Part shown: piece by piece, positions 27,081 through 57,849 of the stretch
Layout of the letters: every line of letters starts with the position of its first letter
Position numbering within the stretch: position 1 is the stretch's first letter
Assembly: GCF_044704955.1 (NCBI RefSeq)
Contig: NC_091979.1
Coordinates: 25,606,001-25,670,000, forward strand
Direction: 5' to 3'
DNA length: 64,000 bases
Source: Pristiophorus japonicus
Lineage: Eukaryota
Translations under genes and position numbers: made by a program
Notes under the pieces: model-generated
What the model was told of the DNA's origin: nothing
Databases searched by the model: none
What the model saw: the letters and a program-made list of their open reading frames with translations, nothing else

Positions 27081-27217
27081 GGTTCAACGCCACCCATGTC
27101 GGTGTTTAAAGGCTCAAAGAGACCTTACCTGAAGGAGTGCATTCTCATCGTAAATCACGACACCGGGGAGTATCGACTGGAGAAACTCAGCAGCAACATC
27201 ACGGTGAAGAAAACCAG
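27081..27217 (+). CDS. EAF2: EAF2 exon 3
   Basis: Acceptor aaacag; [45 protein letters not shown](R); donor GTGGGT; 137 nt. Confidence 0.96.
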
Positions 27218-30305: not shown

Positions 30306-30463
30306 GGCGGAAGGAAGTAGCAAAGTCCAATCTCGCCTTGATCTACAGACCAATCGCCTGGGGCAGCAAATGCGTCTCATCGCCAAGCCCTCCTTTGCAC
30401 CAAAGAGTTCTCCTCCAAAGGAAAAACTGTCACCGGCTTCTCAAATGGACGACATTGAGCGAG
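30306..30463 (+). CDS. EAF2: EAF2 exon 4
   Basis: Acceptor tgcag; AEGSSKVQSRLDLQ...KEKLSPASQMDDIER; donor GTATGT; 158 nt, phases fit both neighbours. Confidence 0.95.
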
Positions 30464-33016: not shown

Positions 33017-33797
33017 ACTCTGCTTCCTGTCTGCCAACCAGTTCTCTATCCACATCAGTATATTGCCCTCAATACCATGTGCTTTGATTTTGCATATCCA
33101 TCTTTTGTGCGGTACCTTGTCAAAAGCCTTCTGAAAGTCCAAATACACCACATCCACTGGTTCTCCCTTGTCCACTCTACTAGTTACATCCTCAAAAAAT
33201 TCCAGAAGATTCGTCAAGCATGATTTCCCTTTCATAAGTCCATGCTGACTTGATCCGATCCTGTCACCACTTTCCAAATGCGCTGCTATTTCATCCTTCA
33301 TGATCGATTCCAACATTTTCCCCACTACTGATGTCAAGTTAACTAGTCTATAATTACCCGTTTTCTCTCTCCCTCCTTTTGTAAAAAGTGGTGTTACATT
33401 AGCTACCCTCCAGTCCATGGGAACTGATCCAGAGTCGATAGACTGTTGGAAAATGATCACCAATGCATCCACTATTTCTATGGCCACTTCCTTGAGCACT
33501 CTTGGATGCAGACAATCAGGCCCCGGGGATGTATCAGCCTTCAATCCCATCAATATCCCTAACACAATTTCCCGCCTAATAAGGATATCCTTCAGTTCCT
33601 CCTTCTCGCAAGACTCTCGGTCCCCTAGTACCTTCGGAAGGTTATTTGTATCTTCCTTCGTGAAGACAGAACCAAAGTATTGGTTCAGTTGGTCTGCCAT
33701 TTCTTTGTTCCCCATTATAATTTCACCTGAATCCGACTGCAAGGGACCTACATTTGTCTTTACTAATCTTTTTCTCTTCACATATTTATCGAAGCTT
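33017..33797 (-). mobile_element. CR1 ORF2 internal fragment
   Basis: Translation aligns to the CR1 ORF2 linker and RT N-terminus (SPGPD, LDFQKAFDKV). Confidence 0.9.
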
Positions 33798-35204
33798 GTG
33801 TGCAACGGCCACCCCACGTTAAAAAAATCCATGCAGACATCTTCAGGATGTAGTTCAGGACCTGGAATATTCGGTCCTTTATTGAAACACCTGTGAACTC
33901 ATCCTTTTTTGGCGAGGAAGCAAGTCATCCTCGTTTCCTCGACTCCATCCCACAGCATGCTACCCGCCACCACCTCAGCAAAATCACAGCCCTGCACGAG
34001 GTAGAAAAGGCCATCCGTCAGCTGAAGAACAAGACATCAGGAGCAGATGGAAATCCCGCCGAGGCACTAAACTATGGCGGTGAAGCACTACTGGCTCGAA
34101 TGCATGAACTCACCTCTCTCATCTGGAAGGAGAGCATGCCAGGAGATCTCAGAGACGCTGTAATCATGATGCTTTTCAAGAAAGGGGACAAGTCCAACTG
34201 CGGTAACTACAGAGGAATCTCCCTGGTGTCAGCCACAGGGAAAGTCATCGCAGGAATCCTCCTCAGTCGTCTTCTCCCTGTGGCTGAAGAGCTCCTTCCA
34301 GAGTCGCAACACAGATTCTGTCCACTAAGGGGTACAACGGATATGGTCTTCACTCCACGACAACTACAAGAGACATTCATTCATTCATATATAGGCAGTC
34401 ACTCGAAATCGAGGAAGACTTGTTTCCATTCTAAAAGTGAGTTCTCAGGTGACTGTACAGTCCAATACGGGAATTACAGTCCCTGTCACAGGTGGGACAG
34501 ACAGTGGTTGAAGGAAAGGGTGGGTGGGGAGTCTGGTTTGCCGCTCGCTCCTTCCACTGCCTGCACTTGTTTTCTGCATGCTCTCGGCGATAAGACTCGA
34601 GGTGCTCGAGGTTACACAGCCAGATAGGGGATGTGTGACCAACAGGAAGAGCAGTGGGAGCAGCGGTCATCCCCCTGCAAAACCGATACACCGCTTTGGG
34701 TACTGTTGGGGGAGAAGACTCATCAGGGGAGGGCAGCAGCAGCCGCCAAGTCCATGGCAACGTGGGTTGCTCTGCTGCACAGGAGGGCAGGAAAAAGAGT
34801 GGGAGAGCTATAGTGATGGGGGATTCTATTGTAAGGGGAATAGATAGGCGTTTCTGCGGCCGTAACTGAGACTCCAGGATGGTATGTTGCCTCCCTGATG
34901 CAAGGGTCAAGGATGTCTCGGAGCGGGTGCAGGACATTTTGAAGAACGAGGGTTAACAGCCAGTTGTCATGGTGCATATAGGTACCAACAAAGTAGGACC
35001 TCATCCCGTTTTTTTACCGATAATACGAATTTAGGGAGCTAGGAGCTAAATTTAAAAGTAGTAATCTCAGGATTGCTACCAGTGCCACGTGCTAGTCAGA
35101 GTAGGAATCGCAGGATAGCTCAGATGAATACGTGGCTTGAGGAATGGTGCAGAAGGGAGGAATTGAAATTCCTGGGACATTGGAACCGGTTCTGGGGGAG
35201 GTGG

Positions 35205-35930
35205 GGATGGGGAGGGAGGGAGAGAGAGAGAGAGAGAGAAGCGGGGGGGGGGGGAGGTGGGGAGGCAGGGAGGCAGGGAGAGAGAGAGAAGCGGGGGGGG
35301 TGGTGGGGGGAGAGAAGCGGGGTGGGGGCAGGGAGGGAGAGAGAGGAGGGTGAAGTGGGGGGGGCGGGAAGGGAGAGAAGCGGGGGTGGGGGGGAGAGAG
35401 AAGCGGGGGGGCGGGGAGGGAGAGAGAAGCGGGGCGGAGGGGGGAGAGAGAGAGAGAGAGAGAGAAGTGGGAAGTGGGAAGTGGAAGTGGCGGGGAGGGA
35501 GAGCGAGCATGGGAGAGAGAGACACCTTGGGGGGGGCGGCGGGGGGAAGAGAGAGATCTTTTTGGGGGGGGGGTGGGGAGAGAGGTCTTGAGCTGGGGGG
35601 AGGAGGGGGAGAGCAAGCGAGCGAGAGAGCTGGGGGTGGGGGGAGGAGAGAGAAAGACACCATGGGGGGGGGGAAAGAGAGTGAGACCTCGTGGGGAGAG
35701 AGAGGGCGGGGGGGGGGGGGGAAGAGAGAGCTGGGGGGGGGCAGTGGGGAAGAGAGAGAGAGACCATGGAGGGGGGAGAGAGAGCTTGGGGGGTGGGGGG
35801 TGGTGGAGAGAGAGCTTGGGAGAGTGGGGGGGGAGAGAGAGAGAGAGAGAGAGAGGGCTGGGGAGTGGGGGAGAGAGAGAGAGAGAGAGAGAGAGAGCCT
35901 GGGAAGGGGGGGTAAGCTGGGGTAAGGGAT
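35205..35930 (+). repeat. Polypurine G/GA-rich tract
   Basis: G runs and (GA)n with AGAAGCGGGG and AGAGCTTGGGG subunits. Confidence 0.9.
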
Positions 35931-36526
35931 GGCTTTGGGAGGGATGGCCTTCCTCTCGAGGGGCCAAATGACCTACAGTTGCTCCTACTTCTTACATGAT
36001 CAGGTTACTTCAGAAATATTTTTCAGGTCGGAGGCATCGGCCCGCAATTTTTGGGCCAATGGGTTTGCATCCAGCAACAGCAGACAAAGTGCTCTGTGAC
36101 TGATTGGTGGGTTCAGATGAAAGGTCGTGGACTAGAAACGTTAACTCTGTGTTTCCCTCTCCAGTGCTGCAGAGTGCTATTTGTCATTCAAGCTCACACA
36201 CGCACACACACACTTCTATCTTGTGTGTTCAATACTGAACAGGGGCCAGTGGATTTAGGAGACTGGGTGAATCTATATGATAATGAATCGAGTTACATGT
36301 CACATCAGTGTTGAAAGCACTCCTGGGTCAAAAAAAAACTGCAATGCCATAAAACAAAAGTTGTTGCAATGGGTTCCTTCCTTGCTGGAGTTTGTTGACC
36401 AGGAAATTGGCAAAGTACTGGCTCGACTCCAGCGTTGTTTTTTTTTTAAGCCAGTTGGGTATGCGGGTATGCAGACATGCCACGGCTGCCAGAGCCTTCA
36501 GTAGGTTGACAGTGTGAAGAACAGCG

Positions 36527-36769
36527 ATGTCCCTCTCGCTGCACTTCTCCTCCGCTGGGAACCGGCTTCTGCCCGCAATCCGTGCCCTCTCCCCGTTGGC
36601 GCGGCGCAAGTCGAGCGCAAGATCGGCGGCGGCGGCGGATCTCGATAGCCGGACCCAGCGGCCGACCGGAGACTTGAAAAGCATCGGTGACCTGCCCGGC
36701 CAAGGTCTGATCGCTGGCATCTACTGGCTCTTCCTGAAGGGTTACCATGAAAAGACCCACGAACTTCAG
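36527..36769 (+). pseudogene. Orphan duplicate of CYP27A-type exon 1 within EAF2 intron 4 (open frame, donor intact)
   Basis: Differs from 57850-58095 by 2 substitutions and one 3-nt indel. No exon 2 was found before EAF2 exon 5. Confidence 0.8.
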
Positions 36770-38460
36770 GTAAAAAAAAAACTATTAACCTTGTTGTGTT
36801 CCTAACACAGATGAGACTGCACACAGGGAGGTTAAAGTAACAGTGACCTCAGTCTTTATTAAGACACTCCAGAGTGAGGAACAGGCCTTAGGGGGCCGTC
36901 TTATATACAGTGCTCCCAAGGGATGCTTGGGACTTCAGGGGATGCGCTCCCTGATGGCGGAACATGGGAGTGTATGCTTTACGGATACACAACATCACTC
37001 CCCCCCCGCCCCCCCACCCCAAAGTCAAAGTGAAAACTATTTACAAGGTGAGGTGGTTGGGAGCCTTTCTGTCCCTGGTGGACCGCCTTGGTACAAATGT
37101 CTGTTCTGGTGTGTTAGCTGTGCCCTCGCTGGGCTGGCATGTTGTTGGCCCTGCAGGGCTGCTGGGTGAGCCTGGCTTTGCTGGGTTGTTCAGTGTGATG
37201 GGTTCGATTTCCTGGTCCGGCGTGGTGTCGTTGATCCTTTTGGTGTGTGTTGTGGGCTCTCAAAAGGTGGTGTCTGCTTTGGGTTGTTCAGGGCAGTCTG
37301 AACCGCAGCCTCGTTTGGTCCAACTGCTTTCTGCAAATTTGTCCATTGTCTAGTTTGACTACAAACTCCCTACTCCCTTCTTTAGCTATCACCGTGCCCG
37401 CGATCCACTTGGGACCGTGTCCATAGTTTAGCACATACACAGGGTCATTCAGGTCAATTTCCCGTGACACAGTGGCGTGACCATCGTTTAGATTTTGTTG
37501 CTGCCGCCTGCTCTCTACCTGATCATGCAGGTTGGGGTGAACCAGCGAGAGTCTGGTTTTAAGTGTCCTTTTCTTGAGTAGCTCAGCCGGGGGCACCCCT
37601 ATGAGCAAGTGGGGTCTAGTGCGGTAGCTGAGCAGTACTCGGGACAGGCCGGTTTGGAGTGAGCCTTCTGTGACACGTTTGAGGCTCTGTTTGATTGTTT
37701 GTACTGCCCGCTCTGCCTGCCCATTGGTGGCTGGTTTAAACGGGGCCGAGGAGACATTGCGGGTCATGAATTCTTTAAACTCGGCACTGGTGAAACATGG
37801 CCCATTGTCATGGACCAATATGTCAGGCAGGCCGTGGGTGGCAAACATGGCCCTCAGGCTTTCAATGGTGACGATGGCGGTGCTTCCCGACATTATTTCA
37901 CATTCAATCCATTTTGAAAAAGCATCCACCACCACCAGGAACATTTTACCGAGAAATGGGCCCGCATAGTCGACATGGATCCTCGACTATGGTCTGGAGG
38001 GCCAGGACCACAAACTTAGTGGTGCCTCTCTGGGTGCGCTGCTCAACTGAGTACACACGTGCATTGCCGTACACAGGACTCTAAGTCAGAGTCGATACCG
38101 GGCCAACACACATGGGATCTGGCTATCGCTTTCGTCATTACTATATCTGGGTGTGTGCTATGGAGATCTGAGATGTCCTTGTTGGTTAGCACTACGTGGT
38201 TACCCCACAACAGGCAGTCTGCCTGAATGGACAGCTCGTCCTTTCGCCACTGGAACAGCTTGATTAGCTCTTGCATTTCAACGGGGATGCTGGCCCAGTT
38301 CCCATTCAGTACACAGTTTTTTTACTAGGGACAGCAGAGGATCTTGGATTTTCAAACACTTCCATGACCATCAACAAGTCTGCGGGCTGCGCCATCATCA
38401 ACAAGTTTGCAGGCTGCGCTGTTTCCACCCCCGTGGTGGGCAATGGTAGCCGACTGAGAG

Positions 38461-39005
38461 TGTTGATACGGATTCTTTTCCCTCCATCTGTCTCAGCGAA
38501 AACACTGACACGAACACCAAGTTACTCTGAGTTATACTTTATTAATGCGACATCAATGCTGGCTTGTCTTAGCAAAGGAACACCGACTCTCTGGGAGTTC
38601 GTTGACTTTACAAAGACAAGCAAGGTTTTAGTGCATACACACGGTAGTTATACATTTTCCAAGCGGCTCATGCATAAAGGATTCATCCAATCATTTTCCT
38701 CCGTACTTCATTCTGGGCCAATAGGGCTTTTCTGCTGCGCATGGTCAGCAGACACAGCCCGCCTCACTTTAGTTCCCTCCGCCTCTGCACTCGAGACTAT
38801 GTTCACAATATATCGGTACTGCATCATCTGGTTCTGCTACACCGTCCTTATCCTGTTATCTGCACCACATTTTTAGCTGATTCACGCTGACTTAGCACCC
38901 CAACTGGTGACCAAAGTCTGTGGACACATGGCATTTTATTATGTTCAATCCCTTATACATATTTCACATTCTTTCAACATTCCTCTATACTTTCTCACAT
39001 TCTCA
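38461..39005 (-). mobile_element. Solo LTR (545 bp) inserted in pol of element A
   Basis: TG...CA termini; 4-bp TSD AGAG (38457-38460, 39006-39009). Removing it restores ENCADALSRLPLP. Minus-strand AATAAA near 38540. Confidence 0.85.
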
Positions 39006-40938
39006 AGAGCATCCGCACAGTTCTCGGTGCCTGGCCTGTGGCGGATGGTATAGTTATACGCTGATAGCGTGAGTGCCTACCTTTGTATGCGGGCTGAGGC
39101 ATTGGTATTTATCCCCTTGTTTTCAGCGAACAGGGATATGAGGGGCTTGTGATCGGTTTCCAGCTCAAATTTGAGGCCAAACAGGTCCTGATGCATTTTC
39201 TTTACCCCGAACGCACGTTCTCAATCTTTCTCTTTCTCTTTCTCAATCATGCTGTTGGCCCTCTCGGCCTTAGATAAGCTCCTGGAAGCATAGGCCACAG
39301 GTTGCAACTTGCCCGCAACATTAGCTTGTTGTAATACACACCCGACTCTGTACGACGACGCATCACATGCTAGCACAAGTCTTTTACACGGGTTATACAA
39401 TACAAGCAGCTTGTTGGAGCATGAAATGTTTCTGGCTTTCTCAAAAGCAATTACTTGTTTTTTTTTTTCCATACCCAGTTCTCACCTTTACACAATAACA
39501 CATGTCGGGGCTCTATGAGGGTGCTTAAGCTCGGTAGGAAGTTACCAAAATAGTTGAGGAGTCCCAGGAACGACCGCAGCTCCGTGACATTCTGTGGCCT
39601 GGGTGCATTCCTGATAGCCTCTGTCTTGGCGTCTGAGGGCCGAATGCCGTCCGCTGCGATCTTTCTCCCCGAAAACTCCACTTCTGTTGTCATGAAGACG
39701 CATTTCAACCTCTTCAGCCACAGCCCTACGCGATCCAGTCGCTGGAGGACCTCCTCCAGGTTTTGTAGGTGCTCGATGGTGTCCTGACCCATGACCAATA
39801 TGACGTCCTGAAAAACCACTGTGCGTGGTACCGACTTGAGTAGGCTCTCCATGTTTCTATGGAAGATCGCTGTAGCCGACCGAATTCCAAATGGGCATCT
39901 GTTGTAGATGGACAGTCCCTTGTGCCTGTTGATGCAGGTGAGGCCCTTCGAAGACTCCTCCAGCTCCTGCGTCATGTAGGCTGAAGTCAGGTCGAGCTTG
40001 GTGAACGTCTTGCCTCCTGCCAGCGTCGCAAATAGGTCGTCTGCCTTAGGTAGCGGGTATTGGTCCTGTAGCGAGAAACAATTAATAGTTACTTTATAAT
40101 TGCCGTAAATCCTGACCGTGCCATCACTTTTGAGTACTGGAACAATCGGGCTGGCCCACTCGCTGAATTCCACTGGGGAGCTGATGCCCTCGCGTTGCAG
40201 CCTGTCCAGCTCAATTTCCACTCTCTCCCTCATCATGTGAGGTACCGCTCGCGCCTTGTGGTGAATGGGTCGTGCCTCTGGGACCAAGTGGATCCGCACC
40301 TTCGCCCTGGAAAAGTTTCCAATGCCTGGCTCAAAAAGGGAAGGAAATTTGTTCAGAACCTGGGTACATGAGGCCTCATCGACATGTGATGGTGCTCGGA
40401 TGTCATCCCAGTTCTAGCGGATTTTGCCCAGCCAGCTCCTTCCAAGCAGTGTGGGGCCATCACCCGGGACAATCCAGAGTGGCAGTTCGTGCACCGTGCC
40501 CTCGTAGGTGACCTTGACCATGGCGCTGCCCAGGACAGTGATAAGCTCTTTGGTGTACGTTCTCAGTTTCGTGAGGATGGGGCTTGTGGTGTATGTTGGT
40601 GAGAGGGGAGCGACCTGTCAAAAGCCCAGCGGGAGATCGAGAGCCAGCGGCAGTTGGTGAGAGGGGAGCGACCTGTCAAAAGCCCAACGGGAGATCGAGA
40701 GCCAGCGGCAGTTGGTGAGAGGGGAGCGACCTGTCAAAAGCCCAGCGGGAGATCGAGAGCCAGCGTACCGGTGCAGCTACAGCGGGAGAGAAAGCAAAAT
40801 AGAAGTAGAAAGTAATCAAAAAGTGACGTCACAGCCAATGGGGTAAGTGATTGGTGAGTAGCTTTTCTTTTCTTTTTTATATCAGTAAGTGAACTGTAAC
40901 ATTGTTATTACCAATTTAAGGGTATCTAAGGTTAAGAC

Positions 40939-41886
40939 ATGGCAGGAGAGCTCGGCCATGTGATATGCTCCTCCTGTACCATGTGGGAACTCGGGGACAC
41001 TTCCGGTGTCCCTGGGCGCTACGTGTGTAGGAAGTGTATCCGCCTCGAGCTCTTGACGGTCCGCGTTGCAGAATTGGAGCTGAGGGTGGATTCACTCTGG
41101 AGCATCCACGATGCTGAGAATGACGTGAGTATCACGTGTAGTGAGTTGGTCTTACCGCAGGAGAAGGGTCCACAGCCAGATAGGGAATGGAAGACCAGCA
41201 GGAAGAGCAGTGCAAGAAAGATAGTGCAGGGGTCCCCTGTGGTCATCCCCCTGCAAAACAGATACACTGCTTTGAGTACTGTTGGGGAGGATGACTCATC
41301 AGGGGAGGGCAGCAGCAGCCAAGTTCATGGCACCGTAGGTGGCTCTGCTGCAAAGGAGGGCAGGAAAAAGAGTGGGAGCGCGATAGTGATAGGGGATTCG
41401 ATGGTGAGGGGAATAGATAGGCGTTTCTGCGGACGCAACCGAGACTCCAGGATGGTATGTTGCCTCCCTGGTGCAAGGGTCAAGGATGTCTCGGAGCGGG
41501 TGCAGGACATTCTGAAATGGGAGGGAGAACAGCCAGTTGTCGTGGTGCACATTGGTACCAACGACATAGGTAAAAAAAGGGATGAGGTCCTACGAAAAGA
41601 ATTTAAGGAGCTAGGAGCTAAATTAAAAAGTAGGACCTCAAAAGTAGTAATCTCGGGATTGCTACCAGTGCCACGTGCTAGTCAGAGTAGGAATCGCAGG
41701 ATAGCGCAGATGAATACATGGCTTGAGCAGTGGTGCAGCAGGGAGGGATTCAAATTCTTGGGGCATTGGAACCGGTTCTGGGGGAGGTGGGACCAGTACA
41801 AACCGGACGGTCTGCACCTGGGCAGGTCCGGAACCAATGTCCTAGGGGGAGTGTTTGCTAGTGCTGTTGGGGAGGAGTTAAACTAA
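40939..41886 (+). CDS. CR1 ORF1p: zinc finger/coiled coil plus SGNH (GDSL) esterase domain
   Basis: 315 aa; CSSC...CRKC, VIGDSMVR, HIGTND, DGLH motifs. Confidence 0.93.
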   Translation: MAGELGHVICSSCTMWELGDTSGVPGRYVCRKCIRLELLTVRVAELELRVDSLWSIHDAENDVSITCSELVLPQEKGPQPDREWKTSRKSSARKIVQGSPVVIPLQNRYTALSTVGEDDSSGEGSSSQVHGTVGGSAAKEGRKKSGSAIVIGDSMVRGIDRRFCGRNRDSRMVCCLPGARVKDVSERVQDILKWEGEQPVVVVHIGTNDIGKKRDEVLRKEFKELGAKLKSRTSKVVISGLLPVPRASQSRNRRIAQMNTWLEQWCSREGFKFLGHWNRFWGRWDQYKPDGLHLGRSGTNVLGGVFASAVGEELN

Positions 41887-41888
41887 TA

Positions 41889-44870
41889 TTGCAGGGGGAT
41901 GGGAGCCAATGCAGGGAGACAGAGGGAGACAAAAATGAGGCAAAAGCAAAAGACAGAAAGGAGATGAGGAAAAGTGGAGGGCAGAGAAACCCAAGGCAAA
42001 GAACAAAAAGGGCCACTGTACAGCAAAATTCTAAAAGGACAGAGGGTGTTAAAAAAGCAAGCCTGAAGGCTTTGTGTCTTAATGCAAGGAGTATCCGCAA
42101 TAAGGTGGATGAATTAACTGTGCAAATAGATGTTAACAAATATGATGTGATTGGGATTACGGAGACGTGGCTCCAGGATGATCAGGGCTGGGAACTCAAC
42201 ATCCAGGGGTATTCAACATTCAGGAAGGATAGAATAAAAGGAAAAGGAGGTGGGGTAGCATTGCTGGTTAAAGAGGAGATTAATGCAATAGTTAGGAAAG
42301 ACATTAGCTTGGATGATGTGGAATCTATATGGGTAGAGCTGCAGAACACTAAAGGGCAAAAATCGTTAGTGGGAGTTGTGTACAGACCTCCAAACAGTAG
42401 TAGTGATGTTGGGGAGGGCATCAAACAGGAAATTAGGAGTGCATGCAATAAAGGTGCAGCAGTTATAATGGGTGACTTTAATATGCACATAGATTGGGCT
42501 AGCCAAACTGGAAGCAATACGGTGGAGGAGGATTTCCTGGAATGCATAAGGGATGGTTTTCTAGACCAATATGTCGAGGAACCAACTAGGGGGGAGGCCA
42601 TCTTAGACTGGGTGTTGTGTAATGAGAGAGGATTAATTAGCAATCTCATTGTGCGAGGCCCCTTGGGGAAGAGTGACCATAATATGGTGGAATTCTGCAT
42701 TAGGATGGAGAATGAAACAGTTAATTCAGAGACCATGGTCCAGAACTTAAAGAAGGGTAACTTTGAAGGTATGAGGCATGAATTGGCTAAGATAGATTGG
42801 CTAATGATACTTAAGGGGTTGACTGTGGATGGGCAATGGCAGACATTTAGAGAACGCATGGATGAATTACAACAATTGTACATTCCTGTCTGGCGTAAAA
42901 ATAAAAAAGGGAAGGTGGCTCAACCGTGGCTATCTAGGGAAATCAGGGATAGTATTAAAGCCAAGGAAATGGCATACAAATTGGCCAGAAATAGCAGCGA
43001 ACCTGGGGACTGGGAGAAATTTAGAACTCAGCAGAGGAGGACAAAGGGTTTGATTAGGGCAGGGAAAATGGAGTACGAGAAGAAGCTTGCAGGGAACATT
43101 AAGGCGGATTGCAAAAGTTTCTATAGGTATGTAAAGAGAAAAAGGTTAGTAAAGACAAACGTAGGTCCCCTGCAGTCAGAATCAGGGGAAGTCATAACGG
43201 GGAACAAAGAAATGGCAGACCAATTGAACAAGTACTTTGATTCAGTATTCACTAAGGAGGACACAAACAACCTTCCGGATATAAAAGTGGTCAGAGGGTC
43301 TATTAAGGAGGAGGAACTGAGGGAAATCTTTATTAGTCGGGAAATTGTGTTGGGGAAATTGATGGGATTGAAGGCCGATAAATCCCCAGGGCCTGATGGA
43401 CTGCATCCCAGAGTACTTAAGGAGGTGGCCTTGGAAATAGCGGATGCATTGACAGTCATTTTCCAACATTCCATTGACTCTGGATCAGTTCCTATCGAGT
43501 GGAGGGTAGCCAATGTAACCCCACTTTTTAAAAAAGGAGGGAGAGAGAAAGCAGGGAATTATAGACCGGTCAGCCTGACCTCAGTAGTGGGTAAAATGAT
43601 GGAATCAATTATTAAGGATGTCATAGCAGCGCATTTGGAAAATGGTGACATGATAGGTCCAAGTCAGCATGGATTTGTGAAAGGGAGATCATGCTTGACA
43701 AATCTTCTGGAATTTTTTGAGGATGTTTCCAATAAAGTGGACAAAGGAGTACCAGTTGATGTGGTATATTTGGACTTTCAGAAGGCTTTCGACAAGGTCC
43801 CACACAGGAGATTAATGTGCAAAGTTAAAGCACATGGGATTGGGGGTAGTGTGCTGACGTGGATTGAGAACTGGTTGTCAGACAGGAAGCAAAGAGTAGG
43901 AGTAAATGGGTACTTTTCGGAATGGCAGGCAGTGACTAGTGGGGTACCGCAGGGTTCTGTGCTGGGGCCCCAGCTGTTTACATTGTACATTAATGATTTA
44001 GACGAGGGGATTAAATGTAGTATCTCCAAATTTGCGGATGACACTAAGTTGGGTGGCAGTGTGAGCTGCGAGGAGGATGCTATGAGGCTACAGAGTGACT
44101 TGGATAGGTTAGGTGAGTGGGCAAATGCGTGGCAGATGAAGTATAATGTGGATAAATGTGAGGTTATCCACTTTGGTGGTAAAAACAGAGAGACAGACTA
44201 TTATCTGAATGGTGACAGATTAGGAAAAGGGAAGGTGCAACGAGACCTGGGTGTCATGGTACATCAGTCATTGAAGGTTGGCATGCAGGTACAGCAGGCG
44301 GTTAAGAAAGCAAATGGCATGTTGGCCTTCATAGCGAGGGGATTTGAGTACAGGGGCAGGGAGGTGTTGCTACAGTTGTACAGGGCCTTGGTGAGGCCAC
44401 ACCTGGAGTATTGTGTACAGTTTTGGTCTCCTAACTTGAGGAAGGACATACTTGCTATTGAGGGAGTGCAGCGAAGATTCACCAGACTGATTCCCGGGAT
44501 GGTGGGACTGACCTATCAAGAAAGACTGGATCAACTGGGCTTGTATTCACTGGAGTTCAGAAGAGTGAGAGGGGACCTCATAGAAACGTTTAAAATTCTG
44601 ACGGGTTTGGACAGGTTGGATGCAGGAAGAATGTTCCCAATGTTGGGGAAGTCCAGAACCAGGAGTCACAGTCTAAGGATAAGGGGTAAGCCATTTAGGA
44701 CCGAGATAAGGAGAAACTTCTTCACCCAGAGAGTGGTGAACCTGTGGAATTCTCTACCACAGGAAGTAGTTGAGGCCAATTCACTAAATATATTCAAAAG
44801 GGAGTTAGATGAAGTCCTTACTACTCGGGGGATCAAGGGGTATGGCGTGAAAGCAGGAAGTGGGTACTGA
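41889..44870 (+). CDS. CR1 ORF2p: APE endonuclease plus reverse transcriptase
   Basis: 993 open codons; NARSIRNK, ITETWL, GDFN, SDHN, YRPVSLTS, LDFQKAFDKV, GVPQGSVLGP, FADD. The first in-frame ATG is about 25 codons in. Confidence 0.96.
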   Translation: MQGDGSQCRETEGDKNEAKAKDRKEMRKSGGQRNPRQRTKRATVQQNSKRTEGVKKASLKALCLNARSIRNKVDELTVQIDVNKYDVIGITETWLQDDQGWELNIQGYSTFRKDRIKGKGGGVALLVKEEINAIVRKDISLDDVESIWVELQNTKGQKSLVGVVYRPPNSSSDVGEGIKQEIRSACNKGAAVIMGDFNMHIDWASQTGSNTVEEDFLECIRDGFLDQYVEEPTRGEAILDWVLCNERGLISNLIVRGPLGKSDHNMVEFCIRMENETVNSETMVQNLKKGNFEGMRHELAKIDWLMILKGLTVDGQWQTFRERMDELQQLYIPVWRKNKKGKVAQPWLSREIRDSIKAKEMAYKLARNSSEPGDWEKFRTQQRRTKGLIRAGKMEYEKKLAGNIKADCKSFYRYVKRKRLVKTNVGPLQSESGEVITGNKEMADQLNKYFDSVFTKEDTNNLPDIKVVRGSIKEEELREIFISREIVLGKLMGLKADKSPGPDGLHPRVLKEVALEIADALTVIFQHSIDSGSVPIEWRVANVTPLFKKGGREKAGNYRPVSLTSVVGKMMESIIKDVIAAHLENGDMIGPSQHGFVKGRSCLTNLLEFFEDVSNKVDKGVPVDVVYLDFQKAFDKVPHRRLMCKVKAHGIGGSVLTWIENWLSDRKQRVGVNGYFSEWQAVTSGVPQGSVLGPQLFTLYINDLDEGIKCSISKFADDTKLGGSVSCEEDAMRLQSDLDRLGEWANAWQMKYNVDKCEVIHFGGKNRETDYYLNGDRLGKGKVQRDLGVMVHQSLKVGMQVQQAVKKANGMLAFIARGFEYRGREVLLQLYRALVRPHLEYCVQFWSPNLRKDILAIEGVQRRFTRLIPGMVGLTYQERLDQLGLYSLEFRRVRGDLIETFKILTGLDRLDAGRMFPMLGKSRTRSHSLRIRGKPFRTEIRRNFFTQRVVNLWNSLPQEVVEANSLNIFKRELDEVLTTRGIKGYGVKAGSGY

Positions 44871-47800
44871 AGTTTCATGTTCAGCCATGAACTCATTGAA
44901 TGGCGGTGCAGGCTAGAAGGGCTGAATGGCCTGCTCCTGCACCTATTTTCTATGTTTCTATGTAGCACACAAATCACTGACTCCACACGGTCTGGTATTG
45001 ATATAACTGCTGTGACCTTAGTCCTTTATTGTGTAACTCCAGGGTGCCTCTTGGGTGTGGTGGGCAGCCTTTTATACTCTGTCTTGCAGGTACTTTCAGG
45101 TCTCCCACCACAGCGCCCTCTGTGGCGCACCATTGTACTTCTACATTTAATGTACCTGGACAATACATAATCTCTCACTCCCCACCCCGCCCCCAGTTCC
45201 AAAAGCCATTGCCGGTGACCTCGGCCTTGTTCGTCCTGGTTGATTTGTCAGTGTGAGTCCATGACCATCCACTTCCCTCTTCTCCCCCATGTGGAGGACC
45301 CGGTGCAAACATGTGGTATTTGCAGTTCTTACATGGGTGATAAGGTACACGAGCATAACCTCCAACAGAACACAGGCATACATAGACGGTACATTTGTAT
45401 GGTACATATAATATGTGGTACAGATGTTATGTCAAAAGGTTGCAGGTCCACTAAACAATTATCACGGATCCATATCCCTTTTACTAGAACCTTGTGGCGT
45501 TAACTCTTTCCGTAATTCATATCCATAATTTTAAACACAGTGACCACTCAGCATTGAAATATTAACTCTTATCGTAATTCGTAATTCATATCCATTATTT
45601 TAAACACAGTTAACCATTCAGCATTAAAATATTAATTCTTATCATAAATCCGTCGCCCTACATTCACATAGCTCATTTAGACTCGCTCTTGCCTTACAAA
45701 AGTCTTTATGTGGGGACCGCCAACGGTGTAAGGCCCTTTTAAGACTCCCGGGTGCATTTCCCTTTTAAGACACCATCTTGTGGCTCCCACGAGGCTTCCC
45801 TTGGGCGCCGCCATCCTGGGTGTTCTGCTGGCCTTTGCAGAGCTCCGTTGCCACGAGGCTCACCACCACCTTGAGCTCGCTGGCGAAGAAAGAACAGAAG
45901 AGACAAGGAAGAAAGGAAGGGCCAGAGCAACCCATCTTTGCAGAAGTGGCTCCTTGGACTCGATCAGTCGCAGTCCCTGTGAGTCCCTCTGTACTTGCTG
46001 ACGCGTCCACCGCTCTGGCTCGCGTTCTCACGAGTCACGCCAGCCGCCTCCGCTCCCACCGTTGTCTCCGCTGTAGCCGCCCCTCCTGTGGCCGCCACCA
46101 TCGCAGCTGCTACCGCCGCCCGGATTTTCCTCTGCGTGGGCCCCCCGGATCCGCCGGCCCTCGATGGAACTCCCGCTCATCGCCCGCAGCGCCCTGCCAG
46201 CCCGCGCCCCAGCAATCGACCCGCACTTGCAAACTTGTTCTTCCAGGGTCTGCTCGTCTATGGAGGCTGAAGCTGCAGGATTGCTTGAGGTCAGGAGTTC
46301 TGGGCTGCTGCTGCAGCTCCAGCTCGGTCGGTGTTGCTCTTTGGGGACCCGGGGAGCAGCAGTCCGTGGAGGAATGAAGTCTTCCCAGCTCCCACGGACC
46401 TTTCCCATCCATCTTCTGCCTGCAATGACCCACAAAGATAAACAGTGCGTCTCTTCCCCAGTGAGATACCTGCACATCCGCTCTGCCGAGAACAGGTATT
46501 AGTTCCCTGGTGTAGGTACGCAGCTTTGCCGTGACCGGGACCAGCTTGGGTCGTGCAGCCGGGTTACCCCACAGTTTCTCAAAAGTTCTCTGACTCATCA
46601 ACGACGGACCCGATCCCGTGTCCACTGCCATACTCACTGGGACTCCGTCAATTTTTGCTTCCATTATCACTGGGGGCGAATCGTCGGTACACGTATACAG
46701 TCCCAACACCTCATCTTCTCCTGCCTGCTCCTCGCTGAACAGTGGATCATCCACCATCTCCTCAGCCACGCGGTGAGTCCGATTTTTTTTTTACACATAC
46801 ACTGAAGGTGGCCTTTCAGGTGGCAGGTATTGCACGTGTACTCCGCAAACCTGCATGGTTTCCTCCGCAGCGCCAGCATGGTGCTGCTCGATTGGCCCCC
46901 CCTTCTGCGGACTCTGAGTTCCAGGACCCCGAGGTCCGTGCTCTCTGCCCCGGACGGAGCCACGTTCTGCAGTTTTGTCCGTGGTGGGTGCTATCCTGTG
47001 GACAGTGCCTGCCGGGTTCGAGACTGTGTGGATCATTTGCTTGGTGCTGCAAGGTCATATATGCCCGGCTGATGGTGATGGCCTTTGTCAGAGTGACTGT
47101 GGGTTCTGTGGCTAACAGCTTGTGAAGGAGGCCCTCGTGGCCAATCCCCATAACGAAAACATCCCGCAAAGCCTCGTCAAGGTGTGCGCCAAAATCACAC
47201 GGCGCCGCAAGTCTCCTGAGATCCGCAGCATATTTGGTGACACCCTGGCCCTCGGGTCTGCAGTGATGGTAAAATTTGTATCTGGCCATGAGGATGCTCT
47301 CCTTCGGTTTCAACTGGTCACGAATGAGTTCAGTCAGCTCCTCATATGACTTGTCCCTGGCGCTCGCGGGTGCCAGCAAATCCCTGACGAGACAGTAAAC
47401 CTCATCACCACAACTGGAAAGCAGTATCGCCTTACGCTTCTCTCTCAGTGTGTCTGTGTGCCCCGTAAGGTCTTTTGCTGTGAAGTAGTACTCGAGCCTT
47501 TCCGTTAAGGTCTCCCAAACATTGCCCACGGTAAAATCCTTTAGCGAGCCCAGAGTAGCCATGGTTGTGTGGAGCCCTTCTGCTTCCTCGTTGCCAATGT
47601 GGTGTATGTAGCACACAAATCACTGACTCCACACGGTCTGGTGTTGATATAACTGCTGTGACCTTAGTCCTTTATTGTGTAACTCTAGAGTGCCTCTCAG
47701 GTGTGGTGAGCAGCTGTTTACACTCAGTCTTGCAGGTACTTTTAGGTCTCCCACCACAGCGCCCTCTGTGGCGCACCATTGTACTTATACATTTACTCCA

Positions 47801-48591
47801 GAGTGAGTAACGGGCCTTAGGGGCCGGCTTATGTACAGTACTCCCAAGGGATGCTGGGATCCCTTGTGACTTCAGGGGATGCGCTCCCTGGTGGCGCAAC
47901 ATGGGAGTGCATGCTTTACAGATGCACAACAAACCTCAACTAATCAGGCACGGAAAGGTGGATTTTTCCTGCTGTTTTTTGCTAGATGCAAAACCCCTAT
48001 TGCACTTTCATCTCCTGCACTTTCCCCATTGCAAGAAAGACATACATTTATATAGCGCCTTTCATGACACCCGGATGTTCCAAAGGGCTTAACAGTCACC
48101 TTTGGAGTGTAGTCACTGTTGTAATGTGGGAAACACAGCAGCCAATTTGCGCACAGCAGGCTCCCACAAACAGCAATGCGATAATGACCAGATAATGTTA
48201 TGTTGGTTGAGGGATAGATATTGGCCCAGGATACTGGGAATAACTCCCCTGCTCTTCTTCACAATAGTGCCGTGAGATCTTTTACATCCACCTGAGAGGG
48301 CAGACGGGGCTCTGGTACAACGTCTCATCTGAAAAACGGCACCTCCGCAGTGCAGCACTCCCTCAGCACTGGGAGTGTTGGCCTAGATTATGGTGATCAC
48401 CTCCCTGGAGTGGGGCTTGAACCCACAACCTTCTGACTCCGAGGCGACTGCTACCCACTGAGCCACAGCTGACAGTGTACTGACATGTTTTACCGGACCC
48501 TTCGAGCTCTATAGCGTCTTCCTCAAGTGCCCATTTTTTTATGTTTGAGCTTAGACACTGAGGGTAAGTGAGCTGCTCAATCATAGGGGGC

Positions 48592-49512: not shown

Positions 49513-49773
49513 AGCTGATGGCAGAGGTGGGCGCCATGAACCAGCTGAGTACATCGGATAGTTCGTCCGACTCCAAGGGGTCTTCATCCTCTTCCTCCAG
49601 CAGCGACAGTTCCAGTGATTCTGAGGATGAGGCACACAAGCCTGCTCTACCTCCTCCAGTGCCTTCCTCTCATACCTTTTCAATGCCATTAATACCGCCG
49701 TCACTACCTCAGCAGCACATATCAACAGCGGAAGCCATTAACAACAGGCCCGAGGAGACTCTGAGCACATTGC
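49513..49773 (+). CDS. EAF2: EAF2 exon 5 (acidic Ser-rich transactivation region)
   Basis: Acceptor tttatag; (E)LMAEVGAMNQLSTSDSSSDSKGSSSSSSSSDSSSDSEDE...ETLSTL; donor GTAAGT; 261 nt. Confidence 0.94.
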
Positions 49774-50583: not shown

Positions 50584-50630
50584 GAAGCGATCTGCAGCTA
50601 AGTGACTCTGGAAGTGACAGTGATGACTGA
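50584..50630 (+). CDS. EAF2: EAF2 exon 6, terminal coding part
   Basis: Acceptor ttttcag; (R)SDLQLSDSGSDSDD-TGA, the conserved EAF C-terminus. The six exons sum to 801 nt in one open frame. Confidence 0.96.
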
Positions 50631-51440
50631 AGAAGGCGCCTTCATTGAGTGAACACAGAGGCAGAGCTTAACTACACCACAAACTTAATTTTTTTTTTAC
50701 AGTAACTGCAATGGCAGGCTGGAAACTGATGCCAAGTGGCAGAAAGGTTGGGAAGAAAATGGCTCTTGTGTAGCGGTGGTGTTTTTTGAATGAGCGTACG
50801 TGTGCGTGTGCGCACGTTCAGATAAATATATTTTAATAAACCTTTTTGTATCAAGGAGACACGGCTACTGCAAGAGCTTAGAAATAATTAGTACGAACCG
50901 TGGTGAGTGGGAATCTGGGACTGTTAATGCATTTAAGCTGATGTCCTGTCAAATCTGTGTCTTGTTCTTTGCCTTAATGTCTGAAGAAATACTTGATGCC
51001 TTAACTGAATCAACAGAGTGCTCTTATACCGATACTATCAAGGAAGGAATGAACTTGACATTTTTTTAAATTAAGTCTTGCTGTAATTGGGCCATGGGAT
51101 ATTAAAACTTTTTTTGTTTTGCAAATTCAAGGAAGGGAGTAATTATATGGATAATTTTTCTTCAGGCAAAGCACTTTTTTAAAAATCCAAAAATGGGAGT
51201 TTTTTTGGGCTGTTTTCACTGTGATCAGTTTATATTTGAAAAAAGTAACCATGGCAATTTGATTACCGATGCACTTTTGGTTCTCTCCTTGATCCCAATG
51301 ATGTTACCAGTAAAGTTACAAGCATTTTCTTTCTCCCCCTCTCTGCAGTGTATCTTTGCACCAGATTTGATAACATTTATATTTAAAAAAAAAATGTATT
51401 TTGTAAAATATTTAATAAAGAGAGCGGCGTTACTTTCTGT
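50631..51440 (+). other. EAF2: EAF2 3' UTR with two candidate polyadenylation signals
   Basis: Repeat-free AT-rich sequence after the stop; AATAAA at 50835-50840 and 51414-51419. Confidence 0.65.
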
Positions 51441-53597: not shown

Positions 53598-56117
53598 AAG
53601 GTGGCCATTCAGACCTCTGCTGGCTTGTTCCATAGAATATACAGCACAGGAACAGTTCATTCACCCCAACTAGTCTGTGCTGGTGCTTATGGCTCATTGG
53701 AGTATCCTCCTATTCCATGTGCCTCATCCCAACCTATCTGCTTCCTTTTCTCTCGTGTGTTCGTCCAGTTTCTTCCTGAAAGTATCCAAGCTATTTGCCT
53801 CAATCACTTCCCATGGCAGTGAGATCCACACTCCAACCACTCTCTCGGCCAAGAAATCTGACCCTCTCTCCCACACTGGATTCACTAGCAACCATCCTGA
53901 TCTATCTGAAAGAACTTAATCCAATTAGTCTCACTGCTCTGTAGCCCGGCAAATTTTTCCCTTTTGGAATCCCAACTCGTTGCATAAGGGACACTTTTTT
54001 AGTTTCGAATATTCATTGTGAGCGTCTGAACAAAATGCAAATGTTGAAGTGGCTGGAAGAGGACAAGGCCTAGGAACCAGATGATCTGCACACACATACA
54101 TTTTATTTAAAATGGTCACATTCTGTGGCAGGTATCATTTAGGCGTGGCTCAGTGGGTAGCACTCTCGCCTCCGAGTCAGAAGGTTGTGGGTTCAAGTCC
54201 CACAACAGAGACCTAAGCACACAAATCAAGGCTGACACTCCAGTGCAGTGCTGCAGGTTTAGTTTAGGTTTAGTGCAAGATGGCCCCCCGGGGTGGCAGC
54301 TCCCTAGGGAGCTCTGCTGAACAACTTTATCCCTGGCCATCTGTTGCAATCTTACACCCTATCCCAATGGCTGCTGGCTGCCGCTCCTCTGGTGGAGTAC
54401 CTCTGCAAGGTACAGCGCGAGCTGGTGCAGGAGGGTGACGGCAGCGAAGAGCGACGTCATCAAGGTCCAGGTGGGTGATTGGAGCGTGGGCAGGTACAGC
54501 AGGAGCGGCGAGGTCGGGGCGAAGGACTGGCAAGAGATTGTAGAGGGATGTGATCGGGGCCCAGGAGAGACGAGGGCCCAGGGCCAGCCCACCCTGCAAT
54601 ATGTGTGCGCACTAGCTCCGTGGTCGCCAGTCGCCTTGGTTAACCCTTGCCACTGGACCAAGACCTAGCTCTGTCAAGCCCGTGTGGTGGCTGGTGTGCA
54701 ACGGCCACCACATGTTAAAAAAAAATCCATGCACAGACATCTTCAGGATGTAGTTCAGGACCTGGAATATTTGGTCCATCATTGAAACACCTGTGAACTC
54801 ATCCTTTTTTGGCGAGGAAGCAAGTCATCCTCGTTTCCTCGACTCCATCCCACAGCATGCTACCCGCCACCACCTCAGCAAAATCACAGCCCTGCACGAG
54901 GTAGAAAAGGCCATCCGTCAGCTGAAGAACAAGACATCAGGAGCAGATGAAAATCCCGCCGAGGCACTAAACTATGGCGGTGAAGCACTACTGGCTCGAA
55001 TGCATGAACTCATCTCTCTCCTCTGGAAGGAGAGCATGCCAGGAGATCTCAGAGACGCTGTAATCATGATGCTTTTCAAGAAAGGGGACAAGTCCAACTG
55101 CGGTAGAGGAATTTCCCTGGTGTCAGCCACAGGGAAAGTCATCGCAGGAATCCTCCTCAGTCATCTTCTCCCTGTGGCTGAAGAGCTCCTCCCAGAGTCG
55201 CAACACAGATTCTGTCCACTAAGGGGTAAAACGGACATGGTCTTCACTCCACGGCAACTACAAGAGACATTCATTCATTCATATATAGGCAGTCACTCAA
55301 AATCGAGGAAGACTTGTTTCCACTCTAAACGTGAGTTCTCAGGTGACTGTACAGTCCAATACGGGAATTACAGTCCCTGTCACAGGTGGGACAGACAGTG
55401 GTTGAAGGAAAGGGTGGGTGGGGAGTCTGGTTTGCCACACGCTCCCTCCGCTGCCTGCACTTGTTTTCTGCATGCTCTCGGCGATAAGACTCGAGGTGCT
55501 CGAGGTTACACAGCCAGATAGGGGATGTGTGACCAACAGGAAGAGCAGTGGAAGGAAGGTAGTGCAGGGGTCCCCTGTGGTCATCCCCCTGCAAAACAGA
55601 TACATCGCTTTGGGTACTGTTGACTCTTCAGGGGAGGGCAGCAGCAGCCAAGTCCATGGCACCTTGGGTGGCTCTGCTGCACAGGAGAGCCGGAAAAAGA
55701 GTGGGAGAGCGATGGTGATGGGGAATTTTATTGTAAGGGAAATAGGCAGACGTTTCTGCGACCGCAACCGAGACTCCAGGATGGTATGTTGCCTCCCTGA
55801 TGCAAGGGCCAAGCATGTCTCGGAGCGGGTGCAGGACATTCTGAAAAGGGAGGTTGAACAGCCAGTTGTCGTGGTGCATATAGGTACCAATGATATAGGT
55901 AAAAAAATGGGATGAGATTCTACAAGACGAATTTGGGGAGCTAGGAGCTAAATTTAAAAAGTAGGATCTCAAAAGTAATAATTTCAGGATTGCTACCAGT
56001 GCCACGTGTTAATCAGAGTAGGAATCGCAGGATAGCTTGGATAAATACGTGGCTTGAGGAGTGGTGCAGAAGGGAGGGATTCAAATTCCTGGGACATTGA
56101 AACCGGTTTTATGGGAG

Positions 56118-57240
56118 GTGGGGGCGGGGAGGGAGGGAGAGAGAGAGAAGTGGGGGGCGTGGGGAGAGAGAGAAGCGGGGGGGGGCAGCGGGGCGGGGAC
56201 GGAGAGAAGCGGTGGTGGCAGGGGGGCAGGGAGAGAGAGAAGTGGAGGGGTGGTGAGGGAGAGAAGTGGGGGGGGCGGCGGGGCGGGGAGAGAGAGAAAT
56301 GGGGGGTCGAGGAGGGAGAGAGAGAAACGGGGAGGGAGAGAGAAGCAGGGTGGAGGGGAGAGAGAGAGAAACGGGTGAGCGGGGAGGGAGAGAGAGAGAG
56401 AGAGAGAGCGAAGCGGGGGAGGGGGGGAGAGCGAGCTTGTGGGGGGAGGGGGGGAGAGAGCGAGCGAGCTTAGGGGGGAAGAGAGAACGAGCTTGGGGAG
56501 GTGGGGGAGAGAGAGTGAGTTTGGGGGGGGGAGAGAGTGAGAGCTGGAGGGAGGGGAGAGAGAGAGCTTGGGGGGGAGAGTGAGCGAGAGCATGGGGGGG
56601 AGGGGAGAGAGAGAGAGCTTGGGGGGGAGGAGAAAGAGAGCTTGGGGGGGGGGGAGAAAGAGAGCTTGGGGGGGGAGAGAGAGAGAGAGAGAACTTGGGG
56701 GTGGGGGGTGGAAGAGCGAGAGAGAGCTTGGGGGGGGGGAAGAGAGAGAGAGAGCTTGGGGGGGGGGGAAGAGAGAGAGAGAGAGCTTGGGGGAGAGAGA
56801 AAGAGAGAGCTGGGGGTGAGAGAGAGAGCTTGGGGGGGAGAGAGAGAGAGCTGGGGGGGGAGAGAGAGAGAGAGACCTTGGGGGGGAGGGGAGAGAGCTT
56901 GGGGGGGCGGGGGGCGGGGGGCAGAGAGAGAGAGCTTGGGGGGGAGGGGAGAGAGCTTAGGGGGACGGGGGGGAGGTGAGAGAGCTTGGGGGGCGGGGGG
57001 AGAGAGAGCTTGGGGGTGGGGGGAGAGAGAGAGAGAGCTTGGGGGGAGAGAGAGAGAGAGAGCTTTGGGGGGTGGGGTGAGAGAGCTTTGGGGGGTGGGG
57101 AGAGAGAGAGAGAGCTTGGGGGGAGAGCGAGAGAGCTTTGCGGGGTGGGGAGAGAGAGAGAGAGCTTTGGCGGGGGGGGGGGGGGGGTGAGGGGAGAGAG
57201 CTTGGGGAGCCGGGGGGGGGGGGTGGGTAAACTGGGGTAA
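56118..57240 (+). repeat. Polypurine G/GA-rich minisatellite, longer paralog of 35205-35930
   Basis: Many (GA)nGCTTGn units. Confidence 0.9.
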
Positions 57241-57849
57241 GGGATGGCTTTGGGAGGGATGGCCTTCCTCTCGAGGGGCCAAATGGCCTACAGTTGCTCC
57301 TACTTCTTACATGATCAGGTTACTTCGTAGACATTTATCAGGTCGGAGGCATCGGCCCGCAATTTCTGGGCCAACGGGTTTGTATCCAGCAACAGCAGAC
57401 AAAGTGCTCTGTGACTGATTGGTGGGTTCGGATGAAAGGTCGTGGACTAGAAACGTTAACTCTGTGTTTCCCTCTCCAGTGCTGCAGAGTGCTATTTGTC
57501 ATTCAAGCTCACACACGCACACACACACTTCTATCTTGTGTGTTCAATACTGAACAGGGGCCAGTGGATTTAGGAGACTGGGTGAATCTATATGATAATG
57601 AATCGAGTTACATGTCACATCAGTGTTGAAAGCACTCCTGGGTCATGTCACAAAAAAAAACCCAGCAATGCCATAAAACAAAAGTTGTTGCAATGGGTTC
57701 CTTCCTTGCTGGAGTTTGTTGACCAGGAAGTTTGCAAAGTACTGGCTCGATTCCAGCGTTGTTTTTTTTTAAGCCAGTTGGGTATGCGGGTATGCAGACA
57801 TGCCACGGCTGCCAGAGCCTTCAGTAGGTTGACAGTGTGAAGAACTGCG

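What the first reader, a model, noticed from the sequence alone, without database searches (positions are those of the whole stretch)
35915..36791. Orphan CYP27A promoter and exon 1 duplicated into EAF2 intron 4
Seen: about 600 bp of upstream sequence, the ATG, an 81-codon open exon with a mitochondrial presequence and the GT donor are all intact, on the same strand as EAF2. The next recognisable acceptor exon is EAF2 exon 5. A phase-0 join to it reads AGC TGA, giving an 82-aa peptide consisting mostly of the mitochondrial targeting sequence, on a transcript that uses EAF2 exons 5-6. Inference: an internal promoter that could produce a CYP27A-EAF2 chimeric RNA, a micropeptide or NMD substrate, or transcriptional interference with EAF2.
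Basis: partly seen in the sequence, partly recalled or inferred. Interest (0 to 1): 0.7.

Follow-up and report, generated by a model that had tools for sequence, protein, structure and literature searches.

The report
Stray P450 promoter inside shark EAF2
An intron of this shark's EAF2 gene holds a real second copy of the promoter region and first exon of the neighbouring P450 gene; the copy is likely old and likely looks intact only because it is repeatedly overwritten from the working gene, and no hybrid RNA from it was seen in the one informative RNA set.

Summary
Window 36527-36769 is an open 81-codon copy of exon 1 of a CYP27A3-type P450 whose intact 9-exon gene starts at 57850. It lies in EAF2 intron 4, and a join to EAF2 exon 5 would give 82 aa. 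The duplication is larger than reported: 33794-36790 plus 47932-~48400. An 11-kb nested LTR/LINE insertion with a 5-nt target duplication splits it 22 nt behind the donor. Divergence between the copies is patchy: 2.5% over three tracts (exon 0.8%) against 10.7% elsewhere, and the LTR ends differ by 8.6%. This points to an old duplication refreshed by gene conversion, so intactness is no sign of function. One run that proved to be RNA shows normal EAF2 exon 4-5 splicing (depth 532) and no CYP-to-exon-5 contig, but the P450 appears off in that sample, so the test is weak. Best reading: a psiBRCA1-like promoter/exon-1 relic, possibly leaky. The scan noted similar homogenised or orphan first exons on other DNA, none at this place.

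The parts
33794..34660 (+). Left part of the duplicated block (repeat debris); low-divergence tract, likely converted
   Evidence: 25 substitutions in 879 aligned nt (33794-34699) against 54690-55592; the RTE-like fragment has 34 shared and 3+6 copy-specific changes; best other genome match 87%
34660..35200 (+). CR1-type LINE fragment inside the duplicated block; high-divergence tract
   Evidence: 50 substitutions in 477 nt; 33 and 31 copy-specific changes, 2 shared and none of them private, against 19 family copies
35200..35914 (+). G/A-rich low-complexity tract, also present before copy 2 (56121-57229)
35915..36526 (+). Copy 1 of the upstream (putative promoter and 5' UTR) region of the CYP27A3-type gene
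   Evidence: 16 substitutions in 611 nt against 57230-57849; CpG o/e 0.91 over 36450-36769; start site not mapped
36527..36769 (+). Copy 1 of coding exon 1 (81 codons, presequence-like N-terminus), phase-0 GT donor at 36770
36791..47931 (-). Nested insertion: Gypsy-type LTR element A (ends 36791-36994 and 47796-47931), containing a second LTR element, itself interrupted by a + strand CR1 LINE (~40598-44960); target duplication AACCT
   Evidence: family labels from gag/pol-like and RT-like frames, names recalled
47932..48400 (+). Continuation of the duplicated block (CYP intron 1 start, then a SINE in which the match ends)
   Evidence: 7 substitutions in 94 unique nt and 37 in 306 SINE nt against 58119-58535
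30306..30463 (+). EAF2 exon 4
   Evidence: spliced to exon 5 in X6
49513..49773 (+). EAF2 exon 5, the acceptor of the proposed chimeric join; TGATG stop/start overlap at 49516-49520
50584..51420 (+). EAF2 exon 6 with stop codon and candidate poly(A) signals at 50835, 51101 and 51414
   Evidence: 3' end inferred from the hexamers
54690..58535 (+). Copy 2, the parent block; 57850-58095 is exon 1 of the intact 9-exon, 523-aa CYP27A3-type gene (exons 2-9 lie 33-102 kb beyond the window end)

Best explanation
Copy 1 is a partial duplicate of the promoter region and exon 1 of the neighbouring CYP27A3-type gene, lying in EAF2 intron 4 without exons 2-9 of its own; it is likely an old relic without selected function that is likely kept near-identical to the parent by repeated gene conversion. 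Shown: the two blocks, their borders, the intact parent gene, the nested insertion with its target duplication in copy 1 only, and the patchy divergence. Inferred order: (1) about 3.5 kb was copied a few kb upstream, probably by break repair, with one end in a SINE and the other at a short microhomology; (2) an LTR element inserted 22 nt behind the donor and cut the 3' part off from exchange; (3) non-crossover exchange went on refreshing 33794-34660 and 35915-36790, while crossovers would delete EAF2 exons 5-6 and be purged. EAF2 is spliced exon 4 to exon 5 across the whole thing (shown in one RNA run). If the copied promoter fires where the P450 is on, its RNA would most likely splice to EAF2 exon 5, stop after 82 codons and be degraded by NMD.
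For: Divergence is 43/1733 in the three low tracts against 94/877 in the others (Fisher p=1e-17; non-CpG only 31/1585 vs 69/797, p=1e-13; tracts were chosen after seeing the profile). The two ends of the LTR element, which must be younger than the duplication, differ at 11/128, more than promoter plus exon (18/854; p=5e-4); each end has its own changes against 24 family copies (4 and 5). The unique 94 nt just behind the insertion are 7.4% diverged, close to the LTR figure. The CR1 fragment shared by both blocks has no private shared change, while the older RTE-like fragment next to it has 34 shared and 9 unshared; no near-identical donor for either CR1 fragment appears among the 40 best-scored genome matches (best 88% and 91%). 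All 48 fourfold sites of the exon are identical (p=0.013 at the LTR rate), and repeat debris is homogenised as well, which selection on a peptide would not do. Both amino-acid changes are derived in copy 1 compared with Heterodontus P0004 (A>S, P>S). X6 shows EAF2 exon 4-5 splicing and no chimeric contig.
Against: No close outgroup genome was available, so conversion is inferred from within-genome patterns only. It requires the duplication to have followed the CR1 insertion closely, since the fragment shares nothing. The SINE tract may be a hybrid of two SINEs and then says nothing on age. Of the 5 right-LTR changes, 2 occur in 21-25% of family copies, so the LTR age may be nearer 5-7%; at half the LTR rate the fourfold-site identity is not significant (p=0.12). 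ATG, donor and CpG richness are intact, so promoter activity is plausible. The RNA test is weak: 1 of 3 runs had contigs on exon 5, contigs drop rare forms, and the P450 exon was not covered in that run.
Confidence: 0.65

Rival explanations
1. Copy 1 is an active internal promoter with a role: in P450-expressing tissue it makes a CYP-EAF2 chimeric RNA that lowers EAF2 by interference, or yields the 82-aa peptide or a 100-aa EAF2 C-terminal fragment by restarting at the overlapping TGATG.
For: Upstream region 97.4% and exon 99.2% identical to the parent, CpG o/e 0.91 vs 0.94, donor identical. The stop of the join overlaps an in-frame EAF2 ATG with a 100-aa frame. Contigs with copy-1 alleles occur in X5 (36020-36244, depth 4.5) and X6 (36724-36823, depth 11.7).
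Against: No chimeric contig in X6; the copy-1 contig is unspliced and no deeper than the intron 4/exon 5 contig (18.6). The TGATG is simply EAF2's own E-L-M codons (E-L-M also in sturgeon and whale-shark EAF2). No TGGGA within 100 nt before the stop (motif recalled from viral termination-reinitiation). Both residue changes are derived in copy 1.
Confidence: 0.13
2. The duplication is recent (about 2-3% divergence) and there was no conversion between the copies; the high-divergence tracts come from a hybrid SINE junction, replacement of one CR1 fragment from elsewhere, and non-identical LTRs.
For: The match ends inside a SINE whose two copies are as far apart as unrelated family members. Three tracts agree at 0.8-2.8%.
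Against: It needs three separate excuses. No donor for either CR1 fragment was found. The unique 94 nt after the LTR are 7.4% diverged.
Confidence: 0.13
3. Copy 1 serves as a distal alternative first exon of the P450, with transcripts reading through EAF2's end and splicing to CYP exon 2, or as a poison cassette exon of EAF2.
For: Phase-0 donor compatible with CYP exon 2. A pyrimidine-rich AG at 36453-36454 would define a 315-nt cassette that stops early in the EAF2 frame.
Against: It must skip EAF2 exons 5-6 and three poly(A) hexamers and span 60 kb. Neither form was seen in X6.
Confidence: 0.06
4. The duplicate is an assembly error or a second haplotype.
For: The DNA run laid (X1) is from the likely source sample, and no copy-2 alleles appeared among its contigs on this stretch.
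Against: Copy 1 has its own junctions and a target-duplication-flanked nested insertion, up to 10-14% local divergence, and its exon/LTR junction is bridged in a second sample (X6).
Confidence: 0.03

Closest known systems
Human psiBRCA1 / duplicated BRCA1 promoter region (PMC8268747, passages read)
   Same: A copy of a gene's 5' region lies a few tens of kb upstream (28 kb there, 21 kb here), with part of a neighbouring gene in the area; the pair is a substrate for unequal recombination.
   Different: Here only one exon is copied, it sits inside a sense-strand intron of a conserved coding gene, and a crossover would remove that gene's last two exons. Recombinant alleles are documented for BRCA1 and only predicted here.
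Interlocus gene conversion between nearby paralogues (PMC3966223, abstract and section list read)
   Same: Patchy homogenisation that makes duplicates look younger than they are.
   Different: That review concerns whole paralogous genes in nematodes, and warns about methods that rest only on the distribution of identical sites; the evidence here is of that kind plus internal repeat clocks.
HYDIN2: incomplete duplication and gene fusion (PMC5345166, abstract and section list read)
   Same: An incomplete duplicate placed next to other exons can give fusion transcripts.
   Different: Fusion transcripts were shown by RACE and long reads there; none is shown here. HYDIN2 gained a promoter, while this copy brings one.
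Fish CYP27A3 (UniRef-named P0089, P0092, P0103; zebrafish CYP27A3 listed in PMC3012610, passages read)
   Same: The parent gene falls in one clade with them (90/93; 62-64% identity) and lies behind EAF2 as in sturgeon and jack gene models.
   Different: Copy 1 is exon 1 only and cannot encode a P450. That paper calls the functions of zebrafish CYP27s unknown.

Membership tests
CYP27A3-type mitochondrial P450 (parent gene, copy 2) | Full P450 frame with heme-binding cysteine motif | tested here: met
   523 aa, 9 exons with GT-AG borders, FGFGTRSCLG; best solved relatives of the orthologue P0004 are CYP24A1 and CYP11A1
CYP27A3-type mitochondrial P450 (parent gene, copy 2) | Groups with named CYP27A3 proteins, apart from other CYP27 paralogues | tested here: met
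   Tree of 17 rows, clade support 90/93, below the tool's 95 mark; no named CYP27A1, B1 or C1 reference was on hand, and two paralogue rows were under half filled
CYP27A3-type mitochondrial P450 (parent gene, copy 2) | Cleavable mitochondrial presequence | tested here: inconclusive
   6 R/K and no acidic residue in the first 37-38 aa, hydrophobic moment 0.78; no targeting predictor available
CYP27A3-type mitochondrial P450 (parent gene, copy 2) | Sterol or vitamin D hydroxylase activity | not testable with these tools
   none
Functional CYP27 gene (copy 1) | Own exons 2-9 | tested here: not met
   One set of exons 2-9 in 264 kb, all behind copy 2
psiBRCA1-type partial 5' duplicate | Same-orientation copy of promoter region and first exon close upstream, without the gene body | tested here: met
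psiBRCA1-type partial 5' duplicate | Sequence exchange with the parent | tested here: inconclusive
   Strong divergence mosaic and repeat clocks, but no outgroup or population data; one other sample shows a copy-2 base on a copy-1 background at 36115
Chimeric (fusion) transcription unit | Junction-spanning cDNA from the copied exon to EAF2 exon 5 | tested here: inconclusive
   Not among the 3 contigs on exon 5 in X6; X5 and X7 had none laid; the parent P450 exon was not covered in X6
Chimeric (fusion) transcription unit | Transcription start in copy 1 | not testable with these tools
   Only assembled contigs were available; they cannot show starts or strand
NMD substrate | Stop more than 50-55 nt before the last exon junction (rule recalled) | tested here: met
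   255 nt in the in-silico join; holds only if the RNA exists
TURBS-type termination-reinitiation | Overlapping stop/start plus upstream UGGGA motif (recalled) | tested here: not met
   TGATG overlap present, no TGGGA within 100 nt upstream

The most novel reading that the evidence does not exclude
Gene conversion keeps a working P450 promoter inside EAF2, so that in P450-expressing tissue a CYP-EAF2 message is made whose 82-codon mitochondrial-peptide frame ends on EAF2's internal ATG (TGATG); restart there would give a 100-aa acidic EAF2 C-terminal fragment without the EAF domain, tying an elongation cofactor to sterol-type regulation in one shark lineage.
Probability: 0.07. Interest if true: 0.6.

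Novelty: new member of a known kind. Interest (0 to 1): 0.27.

Why it matters
As it stands it is a clear case of a stranded promoter and first exon that likely stays intact through gene conversion, which is a warning against reading intactness as function; the nested insertion gives an internal clock for that. It also corrects a gene model: the database protein that matches this gene lacks exon 1 and with it the presequence. If a chimeric RNA were found in P450-expressing tissue it would be an early-stage gene fusion held ready by conversion, which would interest people working on the origin of new genes.

Tried and rejected
Pfam scan of the exon peptide: 0 families. Rfam on 30000-60000: 0 matches. 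Run search: no RNA holder listed; X6 was recognised as RNA only from its spliced contigs. X5 and X7 had no contig on exon 5, which is no evidence either way. Searches for an annotated chimeric product: the exon peptide against 143-2000-aa proteins gave 3 hits, all P450s of other sharks; against 1.84 billion representatives 19 hits, best 50-51% identical; the exon-5 frame against 46-149-aa proteins gave 1 hit, a whale-shark EAF2. None shows a chimeric product, and all are weak as absence. Tandem duplication followed by deletion of a first exon 5-6 pair: no unique remnant in 30464-33800, only short matches that appear to be repeat pieces; not excluded. The inner LTR pair (7.0%) was rejected as a clock because its two ends may come from two insertions. 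An absolute date was rejected: the only rate read is 7e-10 per generation (PMC10587355, passages) and gives about 60 million generations, which is implausible. Literature: 'cyp27a3' 3 papers; EAF2 with CYP27 6 papers, none on this locus by listing; the species name with CYP27 0 papers; CYP27C1/CYP27A/synteny/EAF2 4 papers, none with EAF2. No supplements were read. No structure or complex job was run, as none would bear on the question.

Full report
What is there. The window is G000:C3:25606001-25670000 of a 5.9-Gb genome. An EAF-family gene runs on + with exons at 4331, 19264, 27081-27217, 30306-30463, 49513-49773 and 50584 onward. It is called EAF2 because its exon 5 matches a protein named EAF2 at 74% and the named sturgeon EAF2-like proteins map to exons 1-4; that the second EAF locus on C5 is EAF1 is recalled. 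The reported exon, 36527-36769, is an open frame of 81 codons with the donor CAG|GTAAAA. The genome search returns 2 matches, this one and one 21 kb downstream. The peptide finds 3 shark P450s at 57-69% identity.

The parent gene. The downstream copy (57850-58095) is exon 1 of a complete gene: with exons 2-9, found in the next 200 kb, it gives 523 aa with GT-AG borders and the heme motif. Residues 84-523 are identical, 440 of 440, to database protein P0013, labelled Pristiophorus japonicus, which lacks exon 1. In a 17-row tree the gene joins teleost proteins named CYP27A3 (support 90/93), apart from frog sterol 26-hydroxylase-like rows and four other CYP27-like loci of this genome. The EAF2-then-P450 order is old: fused gene models in a jack and a sturgeon and consecutive accessions in sturgeon show it. 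Copy 2 is therefore the original, and it keeps the residues seen in Heterodontus at both sites where the copies differ.

Extent of the duplication. The blocks match from 33794 (to 54690) through 36790. At 36791 copy 1 is interrupted by 11.1 kb and resumes at 47932; AACCT flanks the insertion on both sides and occurs once in copy 2. The insertion is an LTR element with pol-like frames on the minus strand, holding a second LTR element, which holds a long CR1-type LINE (family names recalled). The match ends inside a SINE near 48400. The left border joins a truncated LINE to a truncated short repeat.

Is it real? Of 7 runs listed, 4 were laid on 35915-36830. A contig of X1, probably the source sample, spans 35915-36817 with no substitutions; no copy-2 alleles showed among X1's contigs there, which I cannot explain beyond low depth (4) and bubble removal. 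A contig of X6, another sample, bridges the exon/LTR junction, and a contig of X5, a third sample, carries copy-1 alleles upstream. With the private junctions and the local divergence, misassembly is unlikely.

Age and intactness. Substitutions between copies are 25/879 (33794-34699), 50/477 (34700-35200), 16/611 (upstream region), 2/243 (exon), 7/94 (unique, after the insertion) and 37/306 (SINE); heterogeneity p=1e-16. The LTR ends, younger than the duplication, differ at 11/128, with 4 and 5 end-specific changes against 24 family copies chosen by likeness to the right end. The CR1 fragment present at the same borders in both blocks has 33 and 31 copy-specific changes and no private shared one against 19 family copies; about 14 of copy 1's fall in one short poorly aligned patch (34990-35013). 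The RTE-like fragment beside it has 34 shared and 9 unshared against 8 copies. No near-identical outside donor turned up among the 40 best-scored of 5,490 and 10,689 candidates. The simplest account is an old duplication whose promoter-exon tract and left tract were later overwritten by gene conversion, the right limit of one tract falling at the LTR insertion. Selection on copy 2 alone does not give 18/854 (p=4e-4 at half the LTR rate). Against this: no outgroup, tract borders chosen by eye, the need for the duplication to follow the CR1 insertion closely, and a SINE tract that may be a hybrid. The consequence is that an intact ATG, frame and donor are expected without any function.

Expression. 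Three of the 7 runs were laid on exon 5; only X6 had contigs, 3 in all. They show exon 4 joined to exon 5 (loose end identical to the exon 4 end; depth 531.8), exon 5 joined to exon 6 (897.6) and unspliced intron 4/exon 5 (18.6). X6 is thus RNA, by inference. No contig joins the P450 exon to exon 5. The X6 contig over 36724-36823 runs unspliced through the donor at depth 11.7, which fits EAF2 pre-mRNA. The rest of the P450 exon is uncovered in X6, so the P450 promoter is probably off in that sample, or a filter removed it; the chimeric RNA is neither shown nor excluded.

What a transcript would do. The join gives 82 aa and stops 255 nt before the last junction, an NMD target by the usual rule (recalled). 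The stop overlaps an in-frame EAF2 ATG that opens 100 aa, but no TGGGA lies upstream and the overlap is just EAF2's conserved E-L-M codons. A cryptic acceptor at 36454 would make a 315-nt poison cassette in EAF2; it was not seen. A crossover between the copies would delete EAF2 exons 5-6 (inference from the layout), like the 37-kb deletions at psiBRCA1 (PMC8268747, passages).

Comparison and verdict. It works like psiBRCA1-type partial 5' duplicates under interlocus conversion (PMC8268747 passages; PMC3966223 abstract and section list). It is not shown to be a fusion gene of the HYDIN2 kind (PMC5345166 abstract and section list). Paper searches found nothing on this locus; some searches were seen as listings only, apart from the papers named. 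Verdict: real, a new member of a known kind, most likely a conversion-maintained relic (0.65); functional chimeric promoter 0.13; interest 0.27.

Noticed in passing
window 57850-58095 and G000:C3:25702780-25772283: The database protein matching this gene (P0013, 440 aa) starts at a Met in exon 2 and lacks exon 1 with the presequence; exon 1 plus exons 2-9 give an intact 523-aa protein. The duplicate may have confused the annotation.
   Followed up: partly
G000:C3:25783434-25820021 (L016-L020), minus strand: A second CYP27-like gene lies tail to tail with the CYP27A3-type gene; it looks like CYP27C1 (label recalled; long branch).
   Followed up: partly
window 41862-44867: The CR1-type LINE inside the nested insertion keeps a stop-free frame of 1002 codons and is 95.8% identical to another copy starting at 61843.
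   Followed up: no
G000:C3:25723636-25728204 and 25738570-25742706 (L010, L011, L012): Two more elements of the same LTR family sit in intron 3 of the P450 gene, 91-93% alike.
   Followed up: no
window 36115: Sample X5 has the copy-2 base on an otherwise copy-1 contig (depth 4.5, one contig, may be an error): ancestral allele or a polymorphic conversion tract.
   Followed up: no
proteins P0064 and P0135: Gene models from a jack and a sturgeon fuse EAF2 to the downstream P450; probably prediction errors, but read-through between these neighbours was not tested.
   Followed up: no
G000:C3:6.69-6.76 Mb, C3:8.42 Mb and C36:37.87 Mb (L025-L041): Further CYP27-like loci; the two on C3 were only partly recovered and group with frog sterol 26-hydroxylase-like rows (81/80).
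   Followed up: partly
window 35200-35914 and 56121-57229: G/A-rich tracts with 6 G-quadruplex-type motifs each lie between the two low-divergence tracts, directly behind a truncated CR1 fragment.
   Followed up: no
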